Below, piece by piece: positions 13,414-23,389 of a DNA stretch of 24,757 nucleotides; the stretch's first letter is position 1; each line of letters starts with the position of its first letter. The position numbers and the translations under genes were made by a program. The notes under the pieces are model-generated. The model searched no databases and had not been told where the DNA came from. It saw only the letters and a program-made list of their open reading frames with translations. This DNA is from a virus (Duplodnaviria; Heunggongvirae; Uroviricota; Caudoviricetes). The stretch is taken from positions 1 through 24,757 of IMG/VR virus record IMGVR_UViG_2648501797_000006; one strand, given 5' to 3'.

Positions 13414-14223
13414 TCAATGTACGGTATCGAGCAGCTTTAACAGCTCAGGGAATCGGGATTCGAAGAAATGCGGCTGCGTCTCGCGCGGATTTGCGGGACT
13501 GGTGATGTTCTTGCCGAACATGCAGCCTTTCGCTGTCAGTGACCAGAATTTTTTGATGTTGTTAATCGCGGTACGGCTGTATCGTTCGCGCTGCTCGACG
13601 ATCCCCAGCTTCACCATCTGGTGATATGCCTGATTAGCTGTCAGGCGGATACCATACTGCTTCAGCAATGCACTCAGTGACAGCGTGGGGCGGCTTGAGC
13701 CATCAGGCGCGTCAGCAGGAGCATCAATGGCATAGCGCGGTGCCAGATTCGGTAAGCCAACAGCCTCCTGGAGTTTCTGACAGGCCCCAAGCACTGAAGA
13801 GTTAGACAGGTTTAACTCCCTGCGCATAAAGTCCAGCAGAATCACTCCAGCCTGCATCTTGTCAGCAGCCTGCCCGGATAATTTTTCCGGTGCGCTGGTT
13901 ACCATATCGAAAGTACGGATCACCTTCAGATGGAATGACGGGCTGATCCACATTGCATAGGCATACACCAGTTCCTTGCAGACATAAGTTCCCCGTTCAT
14001 TTCCCCCATGAATCACACTCACCGGGTCAACACCCAAATTCTGGGTGTTGGTCAATTCATGAACAAGTTCAACAGTTTGTTGGCTGGAAAGAAACTTTCC
14101 TGGCTCCTTGGTTCTGGCATTTGCACCAGATGCTACTGCTGCGCGATGCAGATCGTTCAGGCTGTAACGCCCATAAGCATCACGACGAACTTCAATACCA
14201 TCAATGACCATCAGATTATTCAT
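13414..14223 (-). CDS. KilA-N domain antirepressor-like protein (Ant family)
   Basis: N-terminal MNNLMVIDGIEVRRDAYGRYSLNDLHRAA...KEPGKFL has KilA-N character; ATG at complement 14221..14223 follows AAGGAG. Confidence 0.7.
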   Translation of the reverse strand: MNNLMVIDGIEVRRDAYGRYSLNDLHRAAVASGANARTKEPGKFLSSQQTVELVHELTNTQNLGVDPVSVIHGGNERGTYVCKELVYAYAMWISPSFHLKVIRTFDMVTSAPEKLSGQAADKMQAGVILLDFMRRELNLSNSSVLGACQKLQEAVGLPNLAPRYAIDAPADAPDGSSRPTLSLSALLKQYGIRLTANQAYHQMVKLGIVEQRERYSRTAINNIKKFWSLTAKGCMFGKNITSPANPRETQPHFFESRFPELLKLLDTVH

Positions 14224-14242
14224 ACTTCGTTTCTCCTTTTGC

Positions 14243-14633
14243 TCAGGCGGCTGCACCCGCCGTTTTCTCGTACTTACTGATAGTGATCTCGACCTTCCCT
14301 TCCGGGATAACCGGTCCCCACTCCACCAGCATTCTTTTCACCTGACTGTCGTCTTCCCACACACCCGCGTGGGTCAGGGCGTCAAACAGCGCCTTGTTAT
14401 AGTTGTCCAGATCGCGGCTCCGGTTATCCGGAAGGAAACAACACGATCTCCACTGAAGCAGGTGCCGACGTTGGTTTCGGCAGACGACGTAACTGCTCAA
14501 CTATTGCTGCGCACGCCGCGCTCTGGAATTTTCGCCCCGCCGCGCTTATCAGGCTCTTACCAGCAAACGCCCCTTTGTTGGGGTGTCGCCAGTACGTGTT
14601 CACGCTGGGCGGGAAAGGCAGGATCAGCTTCAT
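14243..14633 (-). pseudogene. rusA: rusA Holliday-junction resolvase split by a 1-nt frameshift
   Basis: ORF 14424..14633 (MKLILPFPPSVNTYWRHPNKG...VEIVLFPSG-stop) is the RusA N-terminus; ORF 14243..14500 (+1 frame) carries ...FLPDNRSRDLDNYNKALFDALTHAGVWEDDSQV..., the RusA catalytic C-terminus. Shift maps to the TGTTGTTT run near 14431..14445. Confidence 0.75.
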
Positions 14634-14956
14634 ACTTTCAGGCCTCTCTCATGTAACCAGTGAGTTGCACGCAGCCTTGCGTTTTCCTCACCGGCAAGCA
14701 GTGAGCGGATAATCCCGACCGCCTCGCTGTCGTCGTCCTTCACCGCGGTATGAAGCGTGATCCCCCGGGCCACACCACGCTTTATCGTGATGACGCCTTT
14801 TTTCTCCAGTGCGCGAAGATGCTCCACCGCTGCATTCACTGAACGGTATCCCAGCATGGTTGCCACCTCCTGATTGGTTGGCGGAAAGCCACGTTCTTGC
14901 TGGTAAGAAATCAGCATATCCAGCACCTGCTGCTGACACTGAGTTAACGTCGTCAT
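14630..14956 (-). CDS. LexA N-terminal DNA-binding-domain protein (108 aa, no peptidase domain)
   Basis: MTTLTQCQQQVLDMLISYQQERGFPPTNQEVATMLGYRSVNAAVEHLRALEKKGVITIKRGVARGITL parallels the LexA winged-helix domain; the S24 domain is absent. Start overlaps the upstream stop as TAATG. Confidence 0.7.
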   Translation of the reverse strand: MTTLTQCQQQVLDMLISYQQERGFPPTNQEVATMLGYRSVNAAVEHLRALEKKGVITIKRGVARGITLHTAVKDDDSEAVGIIRSLLAGEENARLRATHWLHERGLKV

Positions 14957-15450
14957 TAAGCCCCCACGTAATTCCCTGACAGATACCATTCATCACCCGA
15001 TACAGCGCGCTTGCTGCTTTTCCGTAAGCACCGCTCTCGACGCGCCAGAAAGTTGTTTCGTTCTGGCTGGGAGTGACTTTCACGGAATGCCGCCATCCAC
15101 ACCGTTGCAGCACGACGGTATAAGCCCCTGGACTCCAGCTCTTCAGCCTGGCGGGTCAGGCACAAAATCACCCGGGGATCGTTAGTGCCGACATAGAAAT
15201 TGCGCACAGGTCTGGTTTCACGAACAGGTTGTGGTTCCGGCTCCTGCGCTCTCTCAGTCAGGCGCGGGAAATGTCTGCGTGTATCTCCTTCACAACGGTG
15301 AGCCACATGCCCACTCTGACGTAACTTGCTTGCTGACTGCAGAACGCGCTGCCGTGAGTAACCTGCAAAAGCATCCGCAATGTCTCCGGAAGTACAGCCC
15401 GGATGGGCTTCAATGAATTTCTGAACGTCATTCAAAAGACTCATGATCAC
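14956..15450 (-). CDS. Putative PerC-like transcriptional regulator
   Basis: C-terminal LESRGLYRRAATVWMAAFRES...RRERCL resembles the PerC/Pch signature as recalled; N-terminal half unassigned. Confidence 0.45.
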   Translation of the reverse strand: MIMSLLNDVQKFIEAHPGCTSGDIADAFAGYSRQRVLQSASKLRQSGHVAHRCEGDTRRHFPRLTERAQEPEPQPVRETRPVRNFYVGTNDPRVILCLTRQAEELESRGLYRRAATVWMAAFRESHSQPERNNFLARRERCLRKSSKRAVSGDEWYLSGNYVGA

Positions 15451-16388
15451 CCCCTGAATCCTGCCGGGATCTGGCTGTAGTCCACGTTGTCGTAACTGGC
15501 TTTGAAGTACGGGTCTTCACGTTTTTCTGTGTGCGTGCTGACGGACGGCGATAAGCGCAGGGAAAGCTCATCCCATTTTTCCCGCAACTTCGACGGGCTG
15601 AGCACGTTACGGCACCAGAACGGATCGCGGCTGACGCGGCTGTACATCTCGCAGATTTGTTTGTGAGTACGACCATCCTGCACACACATCAGGCGAATTT
15701 CGTTTGCCCATGCTGTCCAGTTCGGTTCTTTGGGACGAACCACCTCGCCGTCACATTCGGCGGCCTGCTCGTACAGGGCAATGATTTTTTTCCAGAGCCA
15801 CTGTGCGCAGGTCAAATCATCCTGCGTTCCCCACTGGCGCTTTTTAGGGCTGAATACAACCGCATCAGGATGGCGAGTTAAAAAATCCTGTTCAGCCGTC
15901 TGCGTGTCCGGTTGCGAAGCGTCCGGACGAGAAGGTTTTTTATCTGACGGATCATGTTTTGATTTTACTGACGGATCCCCGCCAGATTCTGACGGGTGAA
16001 AACCCGCTTTTTTGCCAGATTTCGACGCATCAAATTTTGACGTGTCAGATTTTGATGCGTCAGATTTTGACGGGTCAGAATCTGACAGTTGAGAAAATGC
16101 CGCTGCCTGAAGCTTCGCAACGTTAAGCTGATAAACATTCGACGCATTGCGGTTACCCTGGCGACGCGCCTTACGCGTTAACCAGCCTTCTGCTTCCAGC
16201 CGTGCGATAGCCGTTCTGACGGTACTCATCCCCGCGCCAATCTGACGGGCAATAGTTTCAATTGATGGCCAGCACACACCTTCGTCATTACTGAAATCAG
16301 CCAGGCGGGCCATAATTGCCACGCTGGATAATTTCATGCCTGACGCAGCGCAACCATCCCATACATAGCCGGTTAATTTAGTGCTCAT
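15447..16388 (-). CDS. Replication initiator (O-like function) with an N-terminal HTH domain
   Basis: N-terminus ...CWPSIETIARQIGAGMSTVRTAIARLEAEGWLTRK is a winged-helix replication-protein domain; the central low-complexity SDSDPSKSDASKSDTSKFDASKSG is encoded by tandem DNA repeats. Confidence 0.7.
   Translation of the reverse strand: MSTKLTGYVWDGCAASGMKLSSVAIMARLADFSNDEGVCWPSIETIARQIGAGMSTVRTAIARLEAEGWLTRKARRQGNRNASNVYQLNVAKLQAAAFSQLSDSDPSKSDASKSDTSKFDASKSGKKAGFHPSESGGDPSVKSKHDPSDKKPSRPDASQPDTQTAEQDFLTRHPDAVVFSPKKRQWGTQDDLTCAQWLWKKIIALYEQAAECDGEVVRPKEPNWTAWANEIRLMCVQDGRTHKQICEMYSRVSRDPFWCRNVLSPSKLREKWDELSLRLSPSVSTHTEKREDPYFKASYDNVDYSQIPAGFRG
15940..16095. repeat. Tandem iteron-like repeats (about 8 copies, ~15 bp period) inside the replication gene: probable ori
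   Basis: Repeated (C/T)CAGA(T/A)TTTGACG units, for example tcagattttgatgcg, tcagattttgacggg, tcagaatctgacagt, ccagattctgacggg. Boundaries approximate (within a few nt). Confidence 0.6.
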
Positions 16389-16736
16389 GACCGACCTCTA
16401 TTTCCCTGAATTTACGACGAAACTGTTCGAGCGGGCTGAAGCACTCATGCTCATAGCCTTCACGGAGGTAGATAACCCGTTGTGTTTCCGGCTCCCAACG
16501 AATGACTCTGACGGGCACTCCGTAGTGATCTTTGAACCAGCGGTTAACTTGTCGCAAAGGACTGTCTCCTTCTGCCGGTTGAAATCCCCCACAGCCCACT
16601 CAGCAAAGCTGTGGGTTACAATTTCCCTGTCACCTGGTACATTTACTGCATAGCAATACTCCACCTTCGCTTTTCCACCCGGTACAGGAAGCGCAATCAG
16701 TTGCGAGCGACGGTAGTGTGTTGTTAAACTGTTCAT
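16378..16736 (-). CDS. Hypothetical small protein, possibly split by a +1 frameshift at a G5/C5 tract
   Basis: ORF 16398..16736 has a protein-like N-terminus then a Ser-rich tail; ORF 16378..16599 (+1 frame, GTG start) has a protein-like C-terminus ([37 protein letters not shown]...). Frames cross at ccccc, 16586..16590. Confidence 0.35.
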
Positions 16737-17347
16737 GCGTTAGTTTCTCCACAACCAGAAGCAATCGACGCCACGACGCCCGGAGCTGCACACTCGCGGG
16801 CGTCATTACTTTCTGAAACGCAAAAAATTTTGTAGACAAGTGCTGCATGCTCCTGCAGCTTCGAAATTGAGAGGTACAGCTCGTCGTTAATTGCTGTCTT
16901 CTCATGCGGTTCCACTACACCGTCTTCGATTGCCGAACGAATCTGTCTGGAATAACTGCCAATCTGTTCAATGACTTCCAGCAGGCGCTGGTTAATATCG
17001 GCGTTGTCCACATCCTCGACGTCAGGAAGAGACACAAAGACGCCATTTGCAGACTGCGCCACAGCGTCAGCAATGAAGTGAGTTCCACCAGCACGTTGCA
17101 AAATCATTGCCCATCCCAGCGGGAAAATCTGATCGCCATCGGCACGAAGGCGGTTAAATAATGCGTTTTCTGTTACATCCAGCCAGTCAGCTGCTTCAGC
17201 GTAACCACCCGGCAACGCTGCGATAGTTTTTCTGACAGCTTTCACGTACCACTCAGGCTGTTTTTCTACTTTCCAGTGATGCTTACCCACGGTTAGCCTC
17301 ATCGTTCTGTGGTTTCTGTTAATCGATTTATCCATTAGATTTTTCAT
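16733..17347 (-). CDS. CII-like regulatory protein (YdaT/CP76-like, 204 aa)
   Basis: Sits directly downstream of cro; start MKNLMDKS at complement 17345..17347 overlaps the cro 3' end. Family assignment from memory, not verified. Confidence 0.45.
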
Positions 17348-17528
17348 AAAGCTCAGGTTTAAATGGCAACCGTCCGCAAGTTCTATATGCAGCTTCTGCT
17401 GCACGTCCTTTTGGAATTAACTGGCCCGGACGGTTTCGCCACTGATAAACGGCTTCAGTTGTTATGCCGAAAAAAGCAGCAACTTTCTCAATACTGCCGA
17501 AGTAGCTTTCGATATCGTCAGTTGTCAT
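17328..17528 (-). CDS. Cro-like HTH regulator (YdaS/DicC-like, 66 aa)
   Basis: Small HTH protein (...VAAFFGITTEAVYQWRNR...) divergent from the cI-like gene; GGAGGG 5 nt before the ATG. Confidence 0.65.
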   Translation of the reverse strand: MTTDDIESYFGSIEKVAAFFGITTEAVYQWRNRPGQLIPKGRAAEAAYRTCGRLPFKPELYEKSNG

Positions 17529-17625
17529 ACGCCCTCCAAACTAAGTTTTATTAGATGCTAATTACAAATCTATCTTTGGTCAATAAAAACTAAGATTACT
17601 TAGCAATTCAAGAAATGGTGCTCCT
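17529..17625. promoter_or_regulatory. Divergent immunity-region promoter/operator (OR-like)
   Basis: 97-bp gap between cro-like and cI-like genes with two AACTAAG motifs in near-palindromes: ctaagttttattag (17541..17554) and ctaagattacttag (17590..17603). Candidate leftward -35 TTGACC (complement 17579..17584) and -10 TAGCAT (complement 17555..17560). Confidence 0.55.
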
Positions 17626-18252
17626 ATGGAAACGGTTGGTCAGCGTATAAAAGCTCTGAGAAGAGTTACCGGAACGTCCCAGAAAGAATTGGGTAAATTT
17701 TGTGGAGTAAGCGACGTTGCTGTGGGGTACTGGGAGAAAGACATCAATACCCCTGGTGGGGAGGCACTTTCGAAATTAGCGAAGTTCTTCAATACGTCAA
17801 TAGATTACATTCTTTATGGTGCTGAGTTTGAAGGCAAACTCGTCACAAACATGCGCAGAGTTCCTGTAATATCGTGGGTTCAGGCTGGGCAGTTTACTGA
17901 GTGCAGGGCAGCAGAAGTGTTTAGTGAAGTGGACAAGTGGGTAGATACATCATTAAAGATTGGTGATAACTCATTTGCATTAGAGGTTAAAGGTGACTCC
18001 ATGACTAACCCTAATGGCCTCCCAACAATACCAGAAGGCGCAACAGTGATTGTAGATCCAGATGCAGAACCTCGTCATGGAAAAATAGTCATCGCTCGAC
18101 TTGATGGAACAAACGAAGCTACAGTAAAAAAATTAGTCATCGATGGCCCTCAAAAGTTTTTAGTGCCATTAAATCCTCGGTATCCCAACATCCCTATCAA
18201 TGGTAATTGCCTTATCATTGGTGTAGTCAAAGGAGTTCAATACGAACTCTAA
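17626..18252 (+). CDS. cI-like prophage repressor (HTH-XRE plus S24 LexA-like peptidase domain)
   Basis: N-terminal HTH (QKELGKFCGVSDVAVGYWE) and C-terminal autocleavage domain with GDSM serine and a downstream lysine (VKKLVIDG). Confidence 0.85.
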   Translation: METVGQRIKALRRVTGTSQKELGKFCGVSDVAVGYWEKDINTPGGEALSKLAKFFNTSIDYILYGAEFEGKLVTNMRRVPVISWVQAGQFTECRAAEVFSEVDKWVDTSLKIGDNSFALEVKGDSMTNPNGLPTIPEGATVIVDPDAEPRHGKIVIARLDGTNEATVKKLVIDGPQKFLVPLNPRYPNIPINGNCLIIGVVKGVQYEL

Positions 18253-21909: not shown

Positions 21910-22259
21910 TGGAGCCATACAGCCTCACACTCGATGAGGCCTGTCATTTTCTCAAGATATCCAGACCGACTGCCATTAACTGGATACGCACAGGGCGTCT
22001 TCAGGCAACACGCAAAGATCCCACTAAGAATAAATCTCCTTACCTCACAACACGACAAGCCTGCATTGCGGCTCTTCAGTCTCCGCTGCATACTGTCCAG
22101 GTGAGCGCGGGTGATGGCATAACAGAGGAAAGAAAATGTCACTCTTCCGCAGAGGTGAAATATGGTACGCCAGTTTCACATTGCCGAACGGTAAAAGATT
22201 TAAACAGTCTCTTGGAACAAAGGACAAAAGGCAGGCGACAGAACTCCATGACAAGCTAA
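21909..22259 (+). CDS. Excisionase/AlpA-like DNA-binding protein (xis candidate)
   Basis: AAGAGGTGA before ATG 21909, which overlaps the upstream stop as TAATG. N-terminus [31 protein letters not shown] is an AlpA/Xis-type HTH. The 3' 124 nt overlap int in another frame, so the functional protein may be shorter. Confidence 0.5.
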
Positions 22260-23299
22260 AGGCTGAAGCATGGCGGGTCAGCAAACTTGGTGAAATACCT
22301 GATATAACGTTCGAGGAAGCATGTGTCAGGTGGCTTGAAGAGAAAGCACATAAAAAATCACTGGACGATGACAAAAGCCGGATCGGATTCTGGCTTCAAC
22401 ATTTCGCAGGAATGCAACTAAGAGACATTACTGAATCAAAAATTTATTCAGCAATGCAGAAAATGACGAACCGGCGTCATGAGGAAAACTGGAGACTCAG
22501 GGCAGAAGCATGCAGAAAAAAAGGGAAACCTGTTCCAGAATACACGCCAAAACCAGCGTCCGTTGCAACGAAGGCTACGCATCTTTCATTTATAAAGGCC
22601 CTACTAAGAGCCGCAGAGCGTGAATGGAAAATGCTGGATAAGGCACCAATTATTAAAGTGCCTCAACCAAAGAATAAACGGATCCGCTGGCTGGAGCCCC
22701 ATGAAGCACAAAGGCTGATTGATGAATGTCCGGAGCCATTAAAGTCTGTTGTTGAATTTGCACTGGCAACAGGCTTAAGACGCTCGAACATCATCAACCT
22801 TGAATGGCAACAAATAGACATGCAGCGCCGGGTGGCATGGATAAACCCGGAAGAGAGTAAATCAAACCGCGCAATTGGCGTTGCGCTGAATGATACTGCA
22901 TGTCGCGTTTTGAAAAAACAAATCGGGAATCATCACCGTTGGGTATTTGTGTACAAGGAAAGCTGTACCAAACCAGACGGAACGAAAGCGCCAACAGTAA
23001 GGAAGATGCGGTATGACGCAAACACAGCCTGGAAAGCGGCGCTGAGACGGGCTGGTATTGATGATTTCAGATTTCACGACTTGAGACACACCTGGGCAAG
23101 TTGGCTGGTTCAAGCCGGAGTCCCGTTGTCAGTGTTACAGGAAATGGGAGGCTGGGAGTCTATCGAAATGGTTCGTCGATATGCTCACCTTGCACCTAAT
23201 CACCTTACCGAACACGCACGGCAAATAGACTCGATCCTGAACCCATCGGTCCCAAATTTGTCCCAATCAAAAAATAAGGAAGGTACTAATGATGTGTAA
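22136..23299 (+). CDS. int: Tyrosine recombinase (phage integrase, 387 aa)
   Basis: AGGAAAG before ATG 22136; C-terminal catalytic region with ...[42 protein letters not shown] (R, H-x-x-R, Y). Ends 15 bp from the tRNA 3' end. Confidence 0.9.
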
Positions 23300-23313
23300 C
23301 TTATTGATTTAAA

Positions 23314-23389
23314 TGGTGCCGATAATAGGAGTCGAACCTACGACCTTCGCATTACGAATGCGCTGCTCTACCAACTGAGCTATATCGGC
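23314..23389 (-). tRNA. thrW: tRNA-Thr (anticodon CGU), 76 nt with encoded CCA
   Basis: Reverse complement reads GCCGATATAGCTCAGTTGGTAGAGCAGCGCATTCGTAATGCGAAGGTCGTAGGTTCGACTCCTATTATCGGCACCA: D-loop AGCTCAGTTGGTAGAGC, anticodon loop TTCGTAA, T-arm GGTTCGACTCC. Confidence 0.9.

What the first reader, a model, noticed from the sequence alone, without database searches (positions are those of the whole stretch)
15940..16095. Iteron array inside the replication-initiator gene, read through as a Ser/Asp/Lys-rich linker
About eight ~15-bp repeats of (C/T)CAGA(T/A)TTTGACG lie within the replication gene, as lambda ori lies within O. The same DNA encodes the SDSDPSKSDASKSD... linker, so binding site and linker are co-encoded and copy number can change by slippage.
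Basis: partly seen in the sequence, partly recalled or inferred. Interest (0 to 1): 0.5.

Follow-up and report, generated by a model that had tools for sequence, protein, structure and literature searches.

The report
Replication origin inside prophage initiator gene
A run of 15-base palindromic repeats inside this prophage's replication-initiator gene is very probably the phage's replication origin, built like the classic lambda origin but with a different binding domain and repeat, so it is a new example of a well-known design.

Summary
Window 15930-16088 lies inside a 313-aa O-like initiator gene (15447-16388, minus strand) of an SfII/SfIV-type lambdoid prophage. It holds five contiguous 15-bp units, a sixth unit 33 bp further on, and two GATC-bearing half-units in the most A/T-rich 40 bp of the gene. 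The coding-strand unit is nCnTCA(G/A)A(T/A)TCTGAC, with a palindromic core.

- **DNA-level selection.** In 73 homologues, synonymous sites are nearly frozen in the repeats and the adjacent block, yet vary freely in the N-terminal domain.
- **Modular behaviour.** The repeats travel with the N-terminal winged-helix domain while the C-terminal domain is swapped between at least three types.
- **Co-variation.** Diverged N-domains carry different repeats at the same place.
- **Copy number.** It varies from 2 to 10, always in 15-bp steps that keep the reading frame.
- **Linker.** The encoded peptide (aa 102-161) is predicted to be disordered.
- **Relation to lambda.** The C-terminal domain is homologous to that of lambda O.

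This is a new member of a known kind, namely an origin inside the initiator gene. It differs from lambda in four ways: an HTH_36 rather than lambda-type N-domain, an in-frame 15-bp period, conserved GATC sites, and no helicase-loader gene next to it.

The parts
15447..16388 (-). Replication-initiator gene, 313 aa, O-like
   Evidence: ORF. phrog_391 'replication initiation O-like' 5.5e-135. 98-99% DNA identity to the Shigella phage SfIV and SfII replication genes.
16089..16388 (-). N-terminal winged-helix DNA-binding domain (aa 1-100), the presumed iteron reader
   Evidence: Pfam HTH_36, 42.9 bits against a cut-off of 25, at aa 23-70. The AF2 model shows four helices, a beta wing and a further helix (H90-99). 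Foldseek finds MarR/ArsR-type winged-helix proteins, at weak E-values of 2e-3 and above.
16014..16088 (-). Iteron array: five contiguous 15-bp units (aa 101-125, LSDSD PSKSD ASKSD TSKFD ASKSG)
   Evidence: Across homologues the consensus is nCnTCARAWTCTGAC.
15996..16013 (-). 18-bp spacer, AAAAAAGCGGGTTTTCAC. Its length is constant and its 3' end (TTTTSAC) is conserved, acting as a right half-site that abuts unit 6.
15981..15995 (-). Unit 6, an isolated iteron (CCGTCAGAATCTGGC), nearly invariant in DNA across genera
   Evidence: The majority base at third codon positions reaches 0.97 here, against 0.56 in the N-domain.
15930..15980 (-). Conserved A/T-rich block with two about 24-bp direct repeats. 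Each repeat has a GATC, an iteron half-site (CCGTCAG) and an A-run. This is the candidate unwinding or helicase-entry region.
   Evidence: Lowest G+C of the gene, 30% at 15930-15969. GATC sites at 15950 and 15974. Conserved at the DNA level in 68 homologues and in N-domain specificity variants.
15903..16088 (-). Predicted disordered inter-domain linker (about aa 101-162), co-encoded with the repeats
   Evidence: AF2 pLDDT is below 50 for aa 102-161; 10-residue block means across aa 101-160 run from 28 to 42.
15549..15902 (-). C-terminal domain (aa 163-280), homologous to the C-terminal part of lambda O, which in lambda recruits the helicase loader
   Evidence: BLASTP against lambda O gives 6e-26. 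tblastn gives 39% identity to the O proteins of lambda, 434 and 933W. AF2 pLDDT is about 71-96 over this span, mostly near 90.
17555..17583 (-). pR-like promoter candidate upstream of cro. Transcription from it would pass through cro, the CII-like gene and the initiator gene, and so through the repeats.
   Evidence: Consensus match only: TTGACC, 17 nt, TAGCAT. P22_Cro-type gene at 17328-17528.

Best explanation
Window 15930-16088 is the replication origin of an SfII/SfIV-type lambdoid prophage, embedded in its own initiator gene.

Proposed mechanism:
1. The initiator's N-terminal winged-helix domain, probably as a dimer, binds the palindromic core of each 15-bp unit (GTCAGAWTCTGAC). This covers five contiguous units plus one unit 33 bp downstream.
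2. The resulting nucleoprotein complex destabilises the adjacent conserved A/T-rich block. That block carries two GATC sites and two iteron half-sites.
3. The lambda-O-like C-terminal domain then brings in the host replicative helicase.

Because the element lies in the coding sequence, the same bases are translated as a disordered Ser/Asp/Lys-rich tether between the two domains. The 15-bp period equals five codons, so gain or loss of units never breaks the reading frame.

What is shown: the anatomy, purifying selection on the DNA itself, co-inheritance and co-variation with the N-domain, copy-number polymorphism, linker disorder, and homology of the C-domain to lambda O.

What is inferred: initiator binding, the site of unwinding, origin activity and the route of helicase recruitment.
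For: - **Selection on the DNA rather than the peptide.** In 73 non-identical homologues from many Enterobacterales genera, units defined only by their peptide (SxS[D/E], n=204) use TCA for the first Ser in 195 of 204 cases and TCT for the second in 185 of 204. Elsewhere in the same genes these codons make up 16% and 9% of Ser codons (Fisher p below 1e-100, not corrected for phylogeny).
- **Frozen synonymous sites in the non-repeated block.** Columns with a conserved amino acid have a mean codon entropy of 0.32 bits in the block (11 columns) against 1.44 bits in the N-domain (51 columns) (Mann-Whitney p=1.7e-6). Third-position conservation is 0.97 over unit 6 and falls to 0.45 beyond the block.
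- **No overlapping gene explains this.** Four of the five alternative frames contain stop codons in all 68 homologues, and the fifth does so in 37 of 68.
- **Modularity.** The same N-domain, repeats and block are joined to a lambda-O-like C-domain (this window, Klebsiella phage 1 LV-2017), to a Phg_2220_C domain (Citrobacter phiNP, Yersinia YeP3), or to a third C-terminal part followed by a Toprim/DnaB-like helicase (EKP1).
- **Co-variation with the N-domain.** One N-domain variant (full-length protein about 56% identical) has 15-bp units GTCAA-NNN-TTGAC. Another has TCCAGAAWCTGRA. Both keep the GATC block. Relatives 34-41% identical in the N-domain carry unrelated arrays at the same place, with spacings of about 18 to 33 bp that are mostly not multiples of three, and several of them are palindromic.
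- **Copy-number polymorphism.** 4 to 7 units among identical N-domains, and 2 to 10 across the family.
- **Same layout as lambda.** The order is N-domain, iterons, A/T-rich tract, C-domain. The A/T-rich tract is the G+C minimum of the gene.
- **Disordered linker.** AF2 pLDDT is below 50 for aa 102-161.
- **Published precedent.** The lambda and Stx-phage origins lie in the middle of O. They have 4 and 6 iterons respectively, and the extra two add 13 residues to the protein (PMC7466680).
Against: - There is no experimental evidence for binding or origin function in this phage group, and no paper in the searched library contains the motif.
- The A/T-rich tract is short and only moderately A/T-rich (30% G+C over 40 bp), so it is weaker than lambda's.
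- The 15-bp period is about 1.4 helical turns. This differs from the roughly two-turn spacing of lambda iterons (20, 24 and 23 bp) and of plasmid iterons. Neighbouring sites would therefore face different sides of the helix, so a lambda-like wrapped complex cannot simply be assumed.
- No helicase-loader gene lies next to the initiator gene or anywhere in the 54-gene SfIV genome, so the last step of the mechanism has no identified partner.
- Collapsed arrays exist in otherwise intact genes (P0016, P0032, P0063).
- The statistical tests treat related sequences as independent.
Confidence: 0.8

Rival explanations
1. The repeats are only a slippage-prone, low-complexity peptide linker. On this view the DNA has no function in cis, and its uniformity reflects recent expansion and homogenisation of the array.
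For: The region encodes a disordered Ser/Asp/Lys-rich segment. Copy number is unstable. Tandem arrays do homogenise their codons by descent.
Against: The strongest synonymous conservation is in the parts that are not tandemly repeated, namely unit 6 and the GATC block. These cannot be homogenised by slippage. Amino-acid changes within units (S to F, P or T; D to V, G or E) preserve the DNA consensus better than they preserve the peptide. Distant relatives have arrays at spacings that are mostly not multiples of three, so in those the repeated entity cannot be a peptide. The units are palindromic, a property that means nothing for a peptide.
Confidence: 0.06
2. The repeats are real protein-binding sites but not the origin. 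They could be autoregulatory or copy-control sites for the initiator, or sites for another phage or host protein, with the true origin elsewhere.
For: Iterons in plasmids also serve in control and handcuffing. Binding was not tested. The conserved GATC sites suggest host Dam/SeqA involvement. Several relatives carry a dam gene directly after the initiator gene.
Against: The layout copies lambda's proven origin. The only constant neighbour of the repeats across module swaps is the N-domain. No other repeat cluster or A/T-rich candidate was seen in the early region: Tandem Repeats Finder finds just one other weak array in the window. The initiator gene is transcribed from far upstream, so repeats in mid-gene are badly placed to act as an operator.
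Confidence: 0.1
3. The conserved DNA is a recombination 'linker' at a module boundary. On this view it is shared because mosaic phages repeatedly exchange at this point, not because the sequence is selected.
For: The junction between exchangeable N- and C-modules lies right after the block. P0114 joins an unrelated N-terminal part to the same C-domain at ...SSRPDASQPD.
Against: Conservation spans about 160 bp and shows a motif-like pattern, with base-specific information peaks in each unit, rather than uniform identity. It persists across genera in which flanking synonymous sites vary freely. N-domain variants have changed the unit sequence symmetrically in both half-sites, as expected for a dimer-binding site.
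Confidence: 0.04

Closest known systems
Phage lambda origin (ori-lambda) within gene O, and its 6-iteron versions in Stx phages 933W and P27
   Same: The origin lies in the middle of the initiator gene. The order is N-terminal DNA-binding domain, dyad-symmetric iterons, A/T-rich tract, C-terminal domain. The C-terminal domains are homologous (6e-26). Iteron number varies and changes the protein's length (4 against 6 iterons, adding 13 aa; PMC7466680).
   Different: The N-domain is HTH_36 here; Pfam reported no match to lambda's Phage_rep_O domain. The iteron sequence is unrelated. The units are contiguous 15-bp in-frame units, whereas lambda has 18-bp sites spaced 20 to 24 bp apart. Two conserved GATC sites sit in the A/T-rich block. 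No P gene follows the initiator gene.
Origins inside the initiator genes of other lambdoid and Gram-positive phages, such as P22 gene 18, phi80 gene 15, SPP1 gene 38 and lactococcal TP901-1 repA (from established knowledge, not re-examined here)
   Same: The initiator's binding repeats are embedded in its own coding sequence. The DNA-binding part and the replisome-recruiting part are exchangeable modules.
   Different: The protein families and repeat sequences differ. Those phages usually encode a helicase or a helicase loader next to the initiator.
Iteron origins of plasmids (P1, F, R6K, RK2, pSC101), which use Rep proteins with two winged-helix domains
   Same: Both have an array of repeated initiator-binding sites next to an A/T-rich unwinding region. 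GATC sites are also present in the P1 and oriC unwinding regions (from established knowledge).
   Different: Plasmid iterons are non-coding direct repeats of 17 to 22 bp, spaced at about 22 bp and bound by Rep monomers. DnaA boxes are usual. Here the units are palindromic, have a 15-bp period and are coding. No DnaA box is present and there is no Rep_3-type protein.

Membership tests
Lambda-type origin embedded in an O-type initiator gene | The repeat array lies inside the initiator ORF, between an N-terminal DNA-binding domain and a C-terminal domain | tested here: met
   The units occupy codons 101-136, between the HTH_36 winged helix (aa 1-100) and the folded C-domain (aa 163-280).
Lambda-type origin embedded in an O-type initiator gene | Several dyad-symmetric repeats that co-vary with the initiator's N-domain | tested here: met
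   Six units with a palindromic core. N-domain variants carry different units at the same place.
Lambda-type origin embedded in an O-type initiator gene | An A/T-rich tract on the promoter-distal side of the iterons | tested here: met
   15930-15969 is 30% G+C, the minimum of the gene. Only 3.1% of 40-bp windows in the whole window are this low. The tract is conserved at the DNA level but is shorter and less A/T-rich than lambda's.
Lambda-type origin embedded in an O-type initiator gene | C-terminal domain homologous to that of lambda O | tested here: met
   BLASTP 6e-26, 30% identity over 210 columns. tblastn gives 39% identity over aa 166-277.
Lambda-type origin embedded in an O-type initiator gene | N-terminal domain of the lambda O type (Pfam Phage_rep_O) | tested here: not met
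   Pfam reports HTH_36, GntR and MarR-like matches only. BLASTP shows no significant N-terminal similarity to lambda O.
Lambda-type origin embedded in an O-type initiator gene | A helicase-loader gene (P, DnaC-like) or helicase gene directly downstream | tested here: not met
   The next genes are a PerC-like gene, a LexA-DNA-binding-domain-only gene and rusA. None of the 54 annotated SfIV genes is a loader, helicase or primase.
Lambda-type origin embedded in an O-type initiator gene | The initiator binds the repeats and the fragment supports initiation in cis | not testable with these tools
   This needs EMSA or footprinting and a replication assay. No publication on this element was found.
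HTH_36 (PF13730) replication-protein family | Score above Pfam's gathering threshold | tested here: met
   42.9 bits against a cut-off of 25, E=4.3e-11. The homologues in the protein database carry the same domain.
Plasmid-type iteron origin (Rep_3/RepA/pi/TrfA class) | Non-coding direct repeats at a spacing of about 22 bp, DnaA boxes, and a Rep with two winged-helix domains | tested here: not met
   The period is 15 bp and coding. No DnaA box with a full match lies in 15300-16700. There is one winged-helix domain and no Rep_3 match.

The most novel reading that the evidence does not exclude
The in-frame 15-bp period may be an adaptation rather than an accident. It would couple two quantities that normally evolve separately: the number of initiator-binding sites in the origin and the length of the flexible tether between the initiator's DNA-binding and helicase-recruiting domains. 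Slippage would then tune origin strength and protein reach together without ever inactivating the gene. In addition, this initiator, which has a lambda-O-type C-domain but no P partner, may load the host helicase by a P-independent route.
Probability: 0.2. Interest if true: 0.6.

Novelty: new member of a known kind. Interest (0 to 1): 0.35.

Why it matters
The finding gives a precise, testable origin for a very common group of Escherichia, Shigella, Salmonella and Klebsiella prophages. These include the Shigella serotype-converting phages SfII and SfIV, whose replication has not been studied. It also shows that synonymous-site freezing can locate origins hidden inside genes, and it documents natural variants with 2 to 10 iterons for experiments. 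Finally, it identifies a lambda-O-like initiator that works without a phage-encoded helicase loader. The general principle has been textbook knowledge since lambda, so the conceptual gain is modest.

Tried and rejected
- **Overlapping ORFs.** The window has a 55-aa ORF on the plus strand at 15959-16126 and a 60-aa ORF on the minus strand at 15965-16147. As a cause of the synonymous constraint they are rejected, because the alternative frames carry stops in all or most homologues.
- **A known RNA family.** Rfam finds only a tRNA-Thr elsewhere in the window. The 13-bp palindromes leave a central loop of one nucleotide, too short for a hairpin.
- **DnaA boxes.** No full match is present near the repeats.
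- **Plasmid evidence for autonomous replication.** A 16-kb and a 64-kb circular 'plasmid' carry relatives of the gene, but in both the gene is frameshifted. These look like low-quality assemblies or phage circles, so they were not used.
- **Solved structures.** No close relative has been solved. Only generic MarR-type winged-helix matches were found.
- **Literature.** Searches for the motif and for the SfII/SfIV origin found nothing relevant.
- **An intrinsic-terminator-like hairpin** on the antisense strand at 15993-16006. It is not conserved in homologues and was judged a chance match.

Full report
**What is in the sequence.** Window 15447-16388 (minus strand) is a 313-aa ORF. Tandem Repeats Finder reports a 15-bp array at 16016-16079 with 4.3 copies and 81% matches. 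The repeat finder places copies at 15980, 16013, 16028, 16043, 16058 and 16073. On the coding strand the copies are in frame. There are five contiguous units at 16014-16088, then an 18-bp spacer, then a sixth unit at 15981-15995. After that come two roughly 24-bp direct repeats, each starting GATCCGTCAG and ending in an A-run, at 15930-15980. The core of a unit is the 13-bp palindrome GTCAGAWTCTGAC. Allowing up to 2 mismatches it occurs four times in the window, all within 106 bp. The expected number is 0.45, and none of 100 shuffles reached four.

**What the gene is.** The protein matches phrog_391 'replication initiation O-like' over its full length (5.5e-135). It has a Pfam HTH_36 winged helix at aa 23-70. 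Its C-terminal part is homologous to lambda O (BLASTP 6e-26; 39% identity over aa 166-277 to the O proteins of lambda, 434 and 933W). The DNA is 98-99% identical to the replication genes of Shigella phages SfIV and SfII and of several E. coli phages. The neighbouring genes form a lambdoid immunity and early region: an S24 repressor at 17626-18252, a P22-type cro at 17328-17528, a CII/CP76-like gene at 16733-17404, the initiator, and then PerC-like, LexA-DNA-binding-domain-only and rusA genes. An AlphaFold2 model built from a 59-sequence alignment folds aa 1-100 (helices plus a beta wing) and aa 163-280 with confidence. It leaves aa 102-161 at pLDDT 28-42. The repeats and the adjacent block are thus translated as a predicted disordered linker.

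**Is the DNA itself under selection?** I collected homologues with the same N-domain from one genome per species and from phage records. This gave 73 non-identical genes from Escherichia, Citrobacter, Klebsiella, Kosakonia, Buttiauxella, Yersinia, Pantoea, Providencia, Proteus and other genera. All of them have the array.

- I defined units by peptide alone (SxS[D/E], n=204) to avoid circularity. The first Ser is TCA in 195 of 204 units and the second is TCT in 185 of 204. Elsewhere in the same genes these codons make up 16% and 9% of Ser codons.
- In the non-repeated block that follows (FxPxESGGDPSVxS..DP), columns with a conserved residue have a codon entropy of 0.32 bits. The figure for the N-domain is 1.44 bits (p=1.7e-6).
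- Third-position conservation peaks at 0.97 over unit 6 and falls to 0.45 just beyond the block.
- Alternative reading frames are closed in all or most homologues, and Rfam finds no RNA family here.

The simplest reading is purifying selection on a DNA element that acts in cis. The p-values treat related sequences as independent, so they are descriptive only.

**Who reads it?** Across mosaic phages the repeats travel with the N-domain. The same N-domain, array and block are joined to a lambda-O-like C-domain (this window and Klebsiella phage 1 LV-2017), to a Phg_2220_C domain (Citrobacter phiNP and Yersinia YeP3), or to a third C-terminal part followed by a Toprim/DnaB-like helicase gene (EKP1). 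Conversely, the same C-domain occurs with other N-domains and other linker repeats.

- One variant, whose full-length protein is about 56% identical to the window's, has 15-bp units GTCAA-NNN-TTGAC.
- Another variant has TCCAGAAWCTGRA.
- In both variants the two half-sites changed symmetrically, as expected for a dimeric reader, and both retain the GATC block.
- Relatives that are 34-41% identical in the N-domain carry unrelated arrays at the same position. Their spacings run from about 18 to 33 bp and are mostly not multiples of three, and several arrays are palindromic.

This is the co-variation between initiator and iteron that defines origin specificity in lambdoid phages. The fold of the N-domain resembles MarR/ArsR winged-helix proteins, which bind palindromes as dimers, although the match is weak.

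**Copy number.** Among 80 viral contigs whose N-domain is 100% identical to the window's, most have five contiguous units. Single cases have four, six or seven, always differing by 15 bp. Across the family the range is 2 to 10. I found no such homologue. I did find collapsed arrays (P0016, P0019, P0032, P0063). The Salmonella variant P0032 keeps two units plus the block, and it lies in a roughly 14-kb prophage remnant next to icd that lacks head and tail genes. According to work cited in PMC7466680, two iterons plus the A/T-rich tract suffice for lambda unwinding in vitro. These variants therefore do not contradict an origin role.

**Comparison with lambda.** The lambda record annotates four 18-bp iterons within gene O, starting 20, 24 and 23 bp apart. 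They are followed by the A/T-rich tract. Stx phages have six iterons and 13 extra residues in O (PMC7466680). The window has the same order of parts and a homologous C-domain. It differs in five respects:

- The N-domain belongs to another family.
- The sites are contiguous at 15 bp, about 1.4 helical turns, so neighbouring sites face different sides of the helix.
- The period is a whole number of codons.
- The A/T-rich block is short (30% G+C over 40 bp) and carries two conserved GATC sites.
- There is no P, DnaC-like or helicase gene beside the initiator gene or anywhere in the 54-gene SfIV genome.

No DnaA box is present near the repeats.

**Verdict.** This is most probably the phage's replication origin, co-encoded with the initiator's linker (confidence about 0.8). 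It is a new member of a long-known kind. I found no description of this particular origin. Binding, unwinding and origin activity remain to be shown. How the helicase is loaded without a phage-encoded loader is the most interesting open point.

Noticed in passing
window 14200-16388; SfIV genome NC_022749.1 (L165, L172): The replication module consists of the initiator alone. No lambda-P-like, DnaC-like, helicase or primase gene follows the initiator gene, and none is annotated among the 54 genes of the near-identical functional phage SfIV. Yet the initiator's C-domain is homologous to the part of lambda O that binds P in lambda. How the host helicase is recruited is unknown.
   Followed up: partly
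window 15944-15977 (GATC at 15950 and 15974); L001, L002, L003, L168: Two GATC sites in the A/T-rich block are conserved in at least 80-95% of homologues. Several relatives (Klebsiella phage 1 LV-2017, phiNP, YeP3 and a Salmonella prophage remnant) carry a DNA adenine methylase gene at or within two genes downstream of the initiator gene. This hints at control of the origin by Dam/SeqA.
   Followed up: partly
L169 (lambda) 663-680 compared with window 15981-15996: Just past lambda's A/T-rich tract, gene O reads CGTCAGAGAATTCTGGCG. This resembles unit 6 here (CCGTCAGAATCTGGCG). It could be chance or a trace of shared ancestry between the two origins.
   Followed up: no
window 14630-14989 (-): A 119-aa protein consists of a LexA DNA-binding domain only (PF01726, 3.3e-19) and has no S24 peptidase domain. 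It would be an uncleavable LexA look-alike encoded in the phage early operon.
   Followed up: no
window 14243-14633 (-): The gene identified as rusA appears as two overlapping ORFs, 14424-14633 and 14243-14500, which suggests a frameshifted or pseudogenised gene. SfIV has an unannotated gap at the corresponding place.
   Followed up: no
window 22136-23389: An integrase ORF at 22136-23299 (+) abuts tRNA-Thr (CGT) at 23314-23389 (-). This is probably the prophage attachment site and the right-hand end of the prophage in the window.
   Followed up: partly
window 15993-16012 (+): An intrinsic-terminator-like hairpin followed by a T-run (CGGGTGAAAACCCG CTTTTTT) lies on the strand antisense to the initiator gene, inside the 18-bp spacer between units 5 and 6. 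The stem is not conserved in homologues, so it is probably a chance match.
   Followed up: yes
L170 (NZ_CP148542.1, 15,977-bp circular record): This small circular E. coli 'plasmid' consists of a lambdoid immunity and early region: repressor, cro, a relative of this initiator gene, a DnaC-like ATPase, rusA and Q. It resembles a natural lambda-dv-type replicon. However, its initiator gene is frameshifted in the record, so the assembly quality is doubtful.
   Followed up: partly
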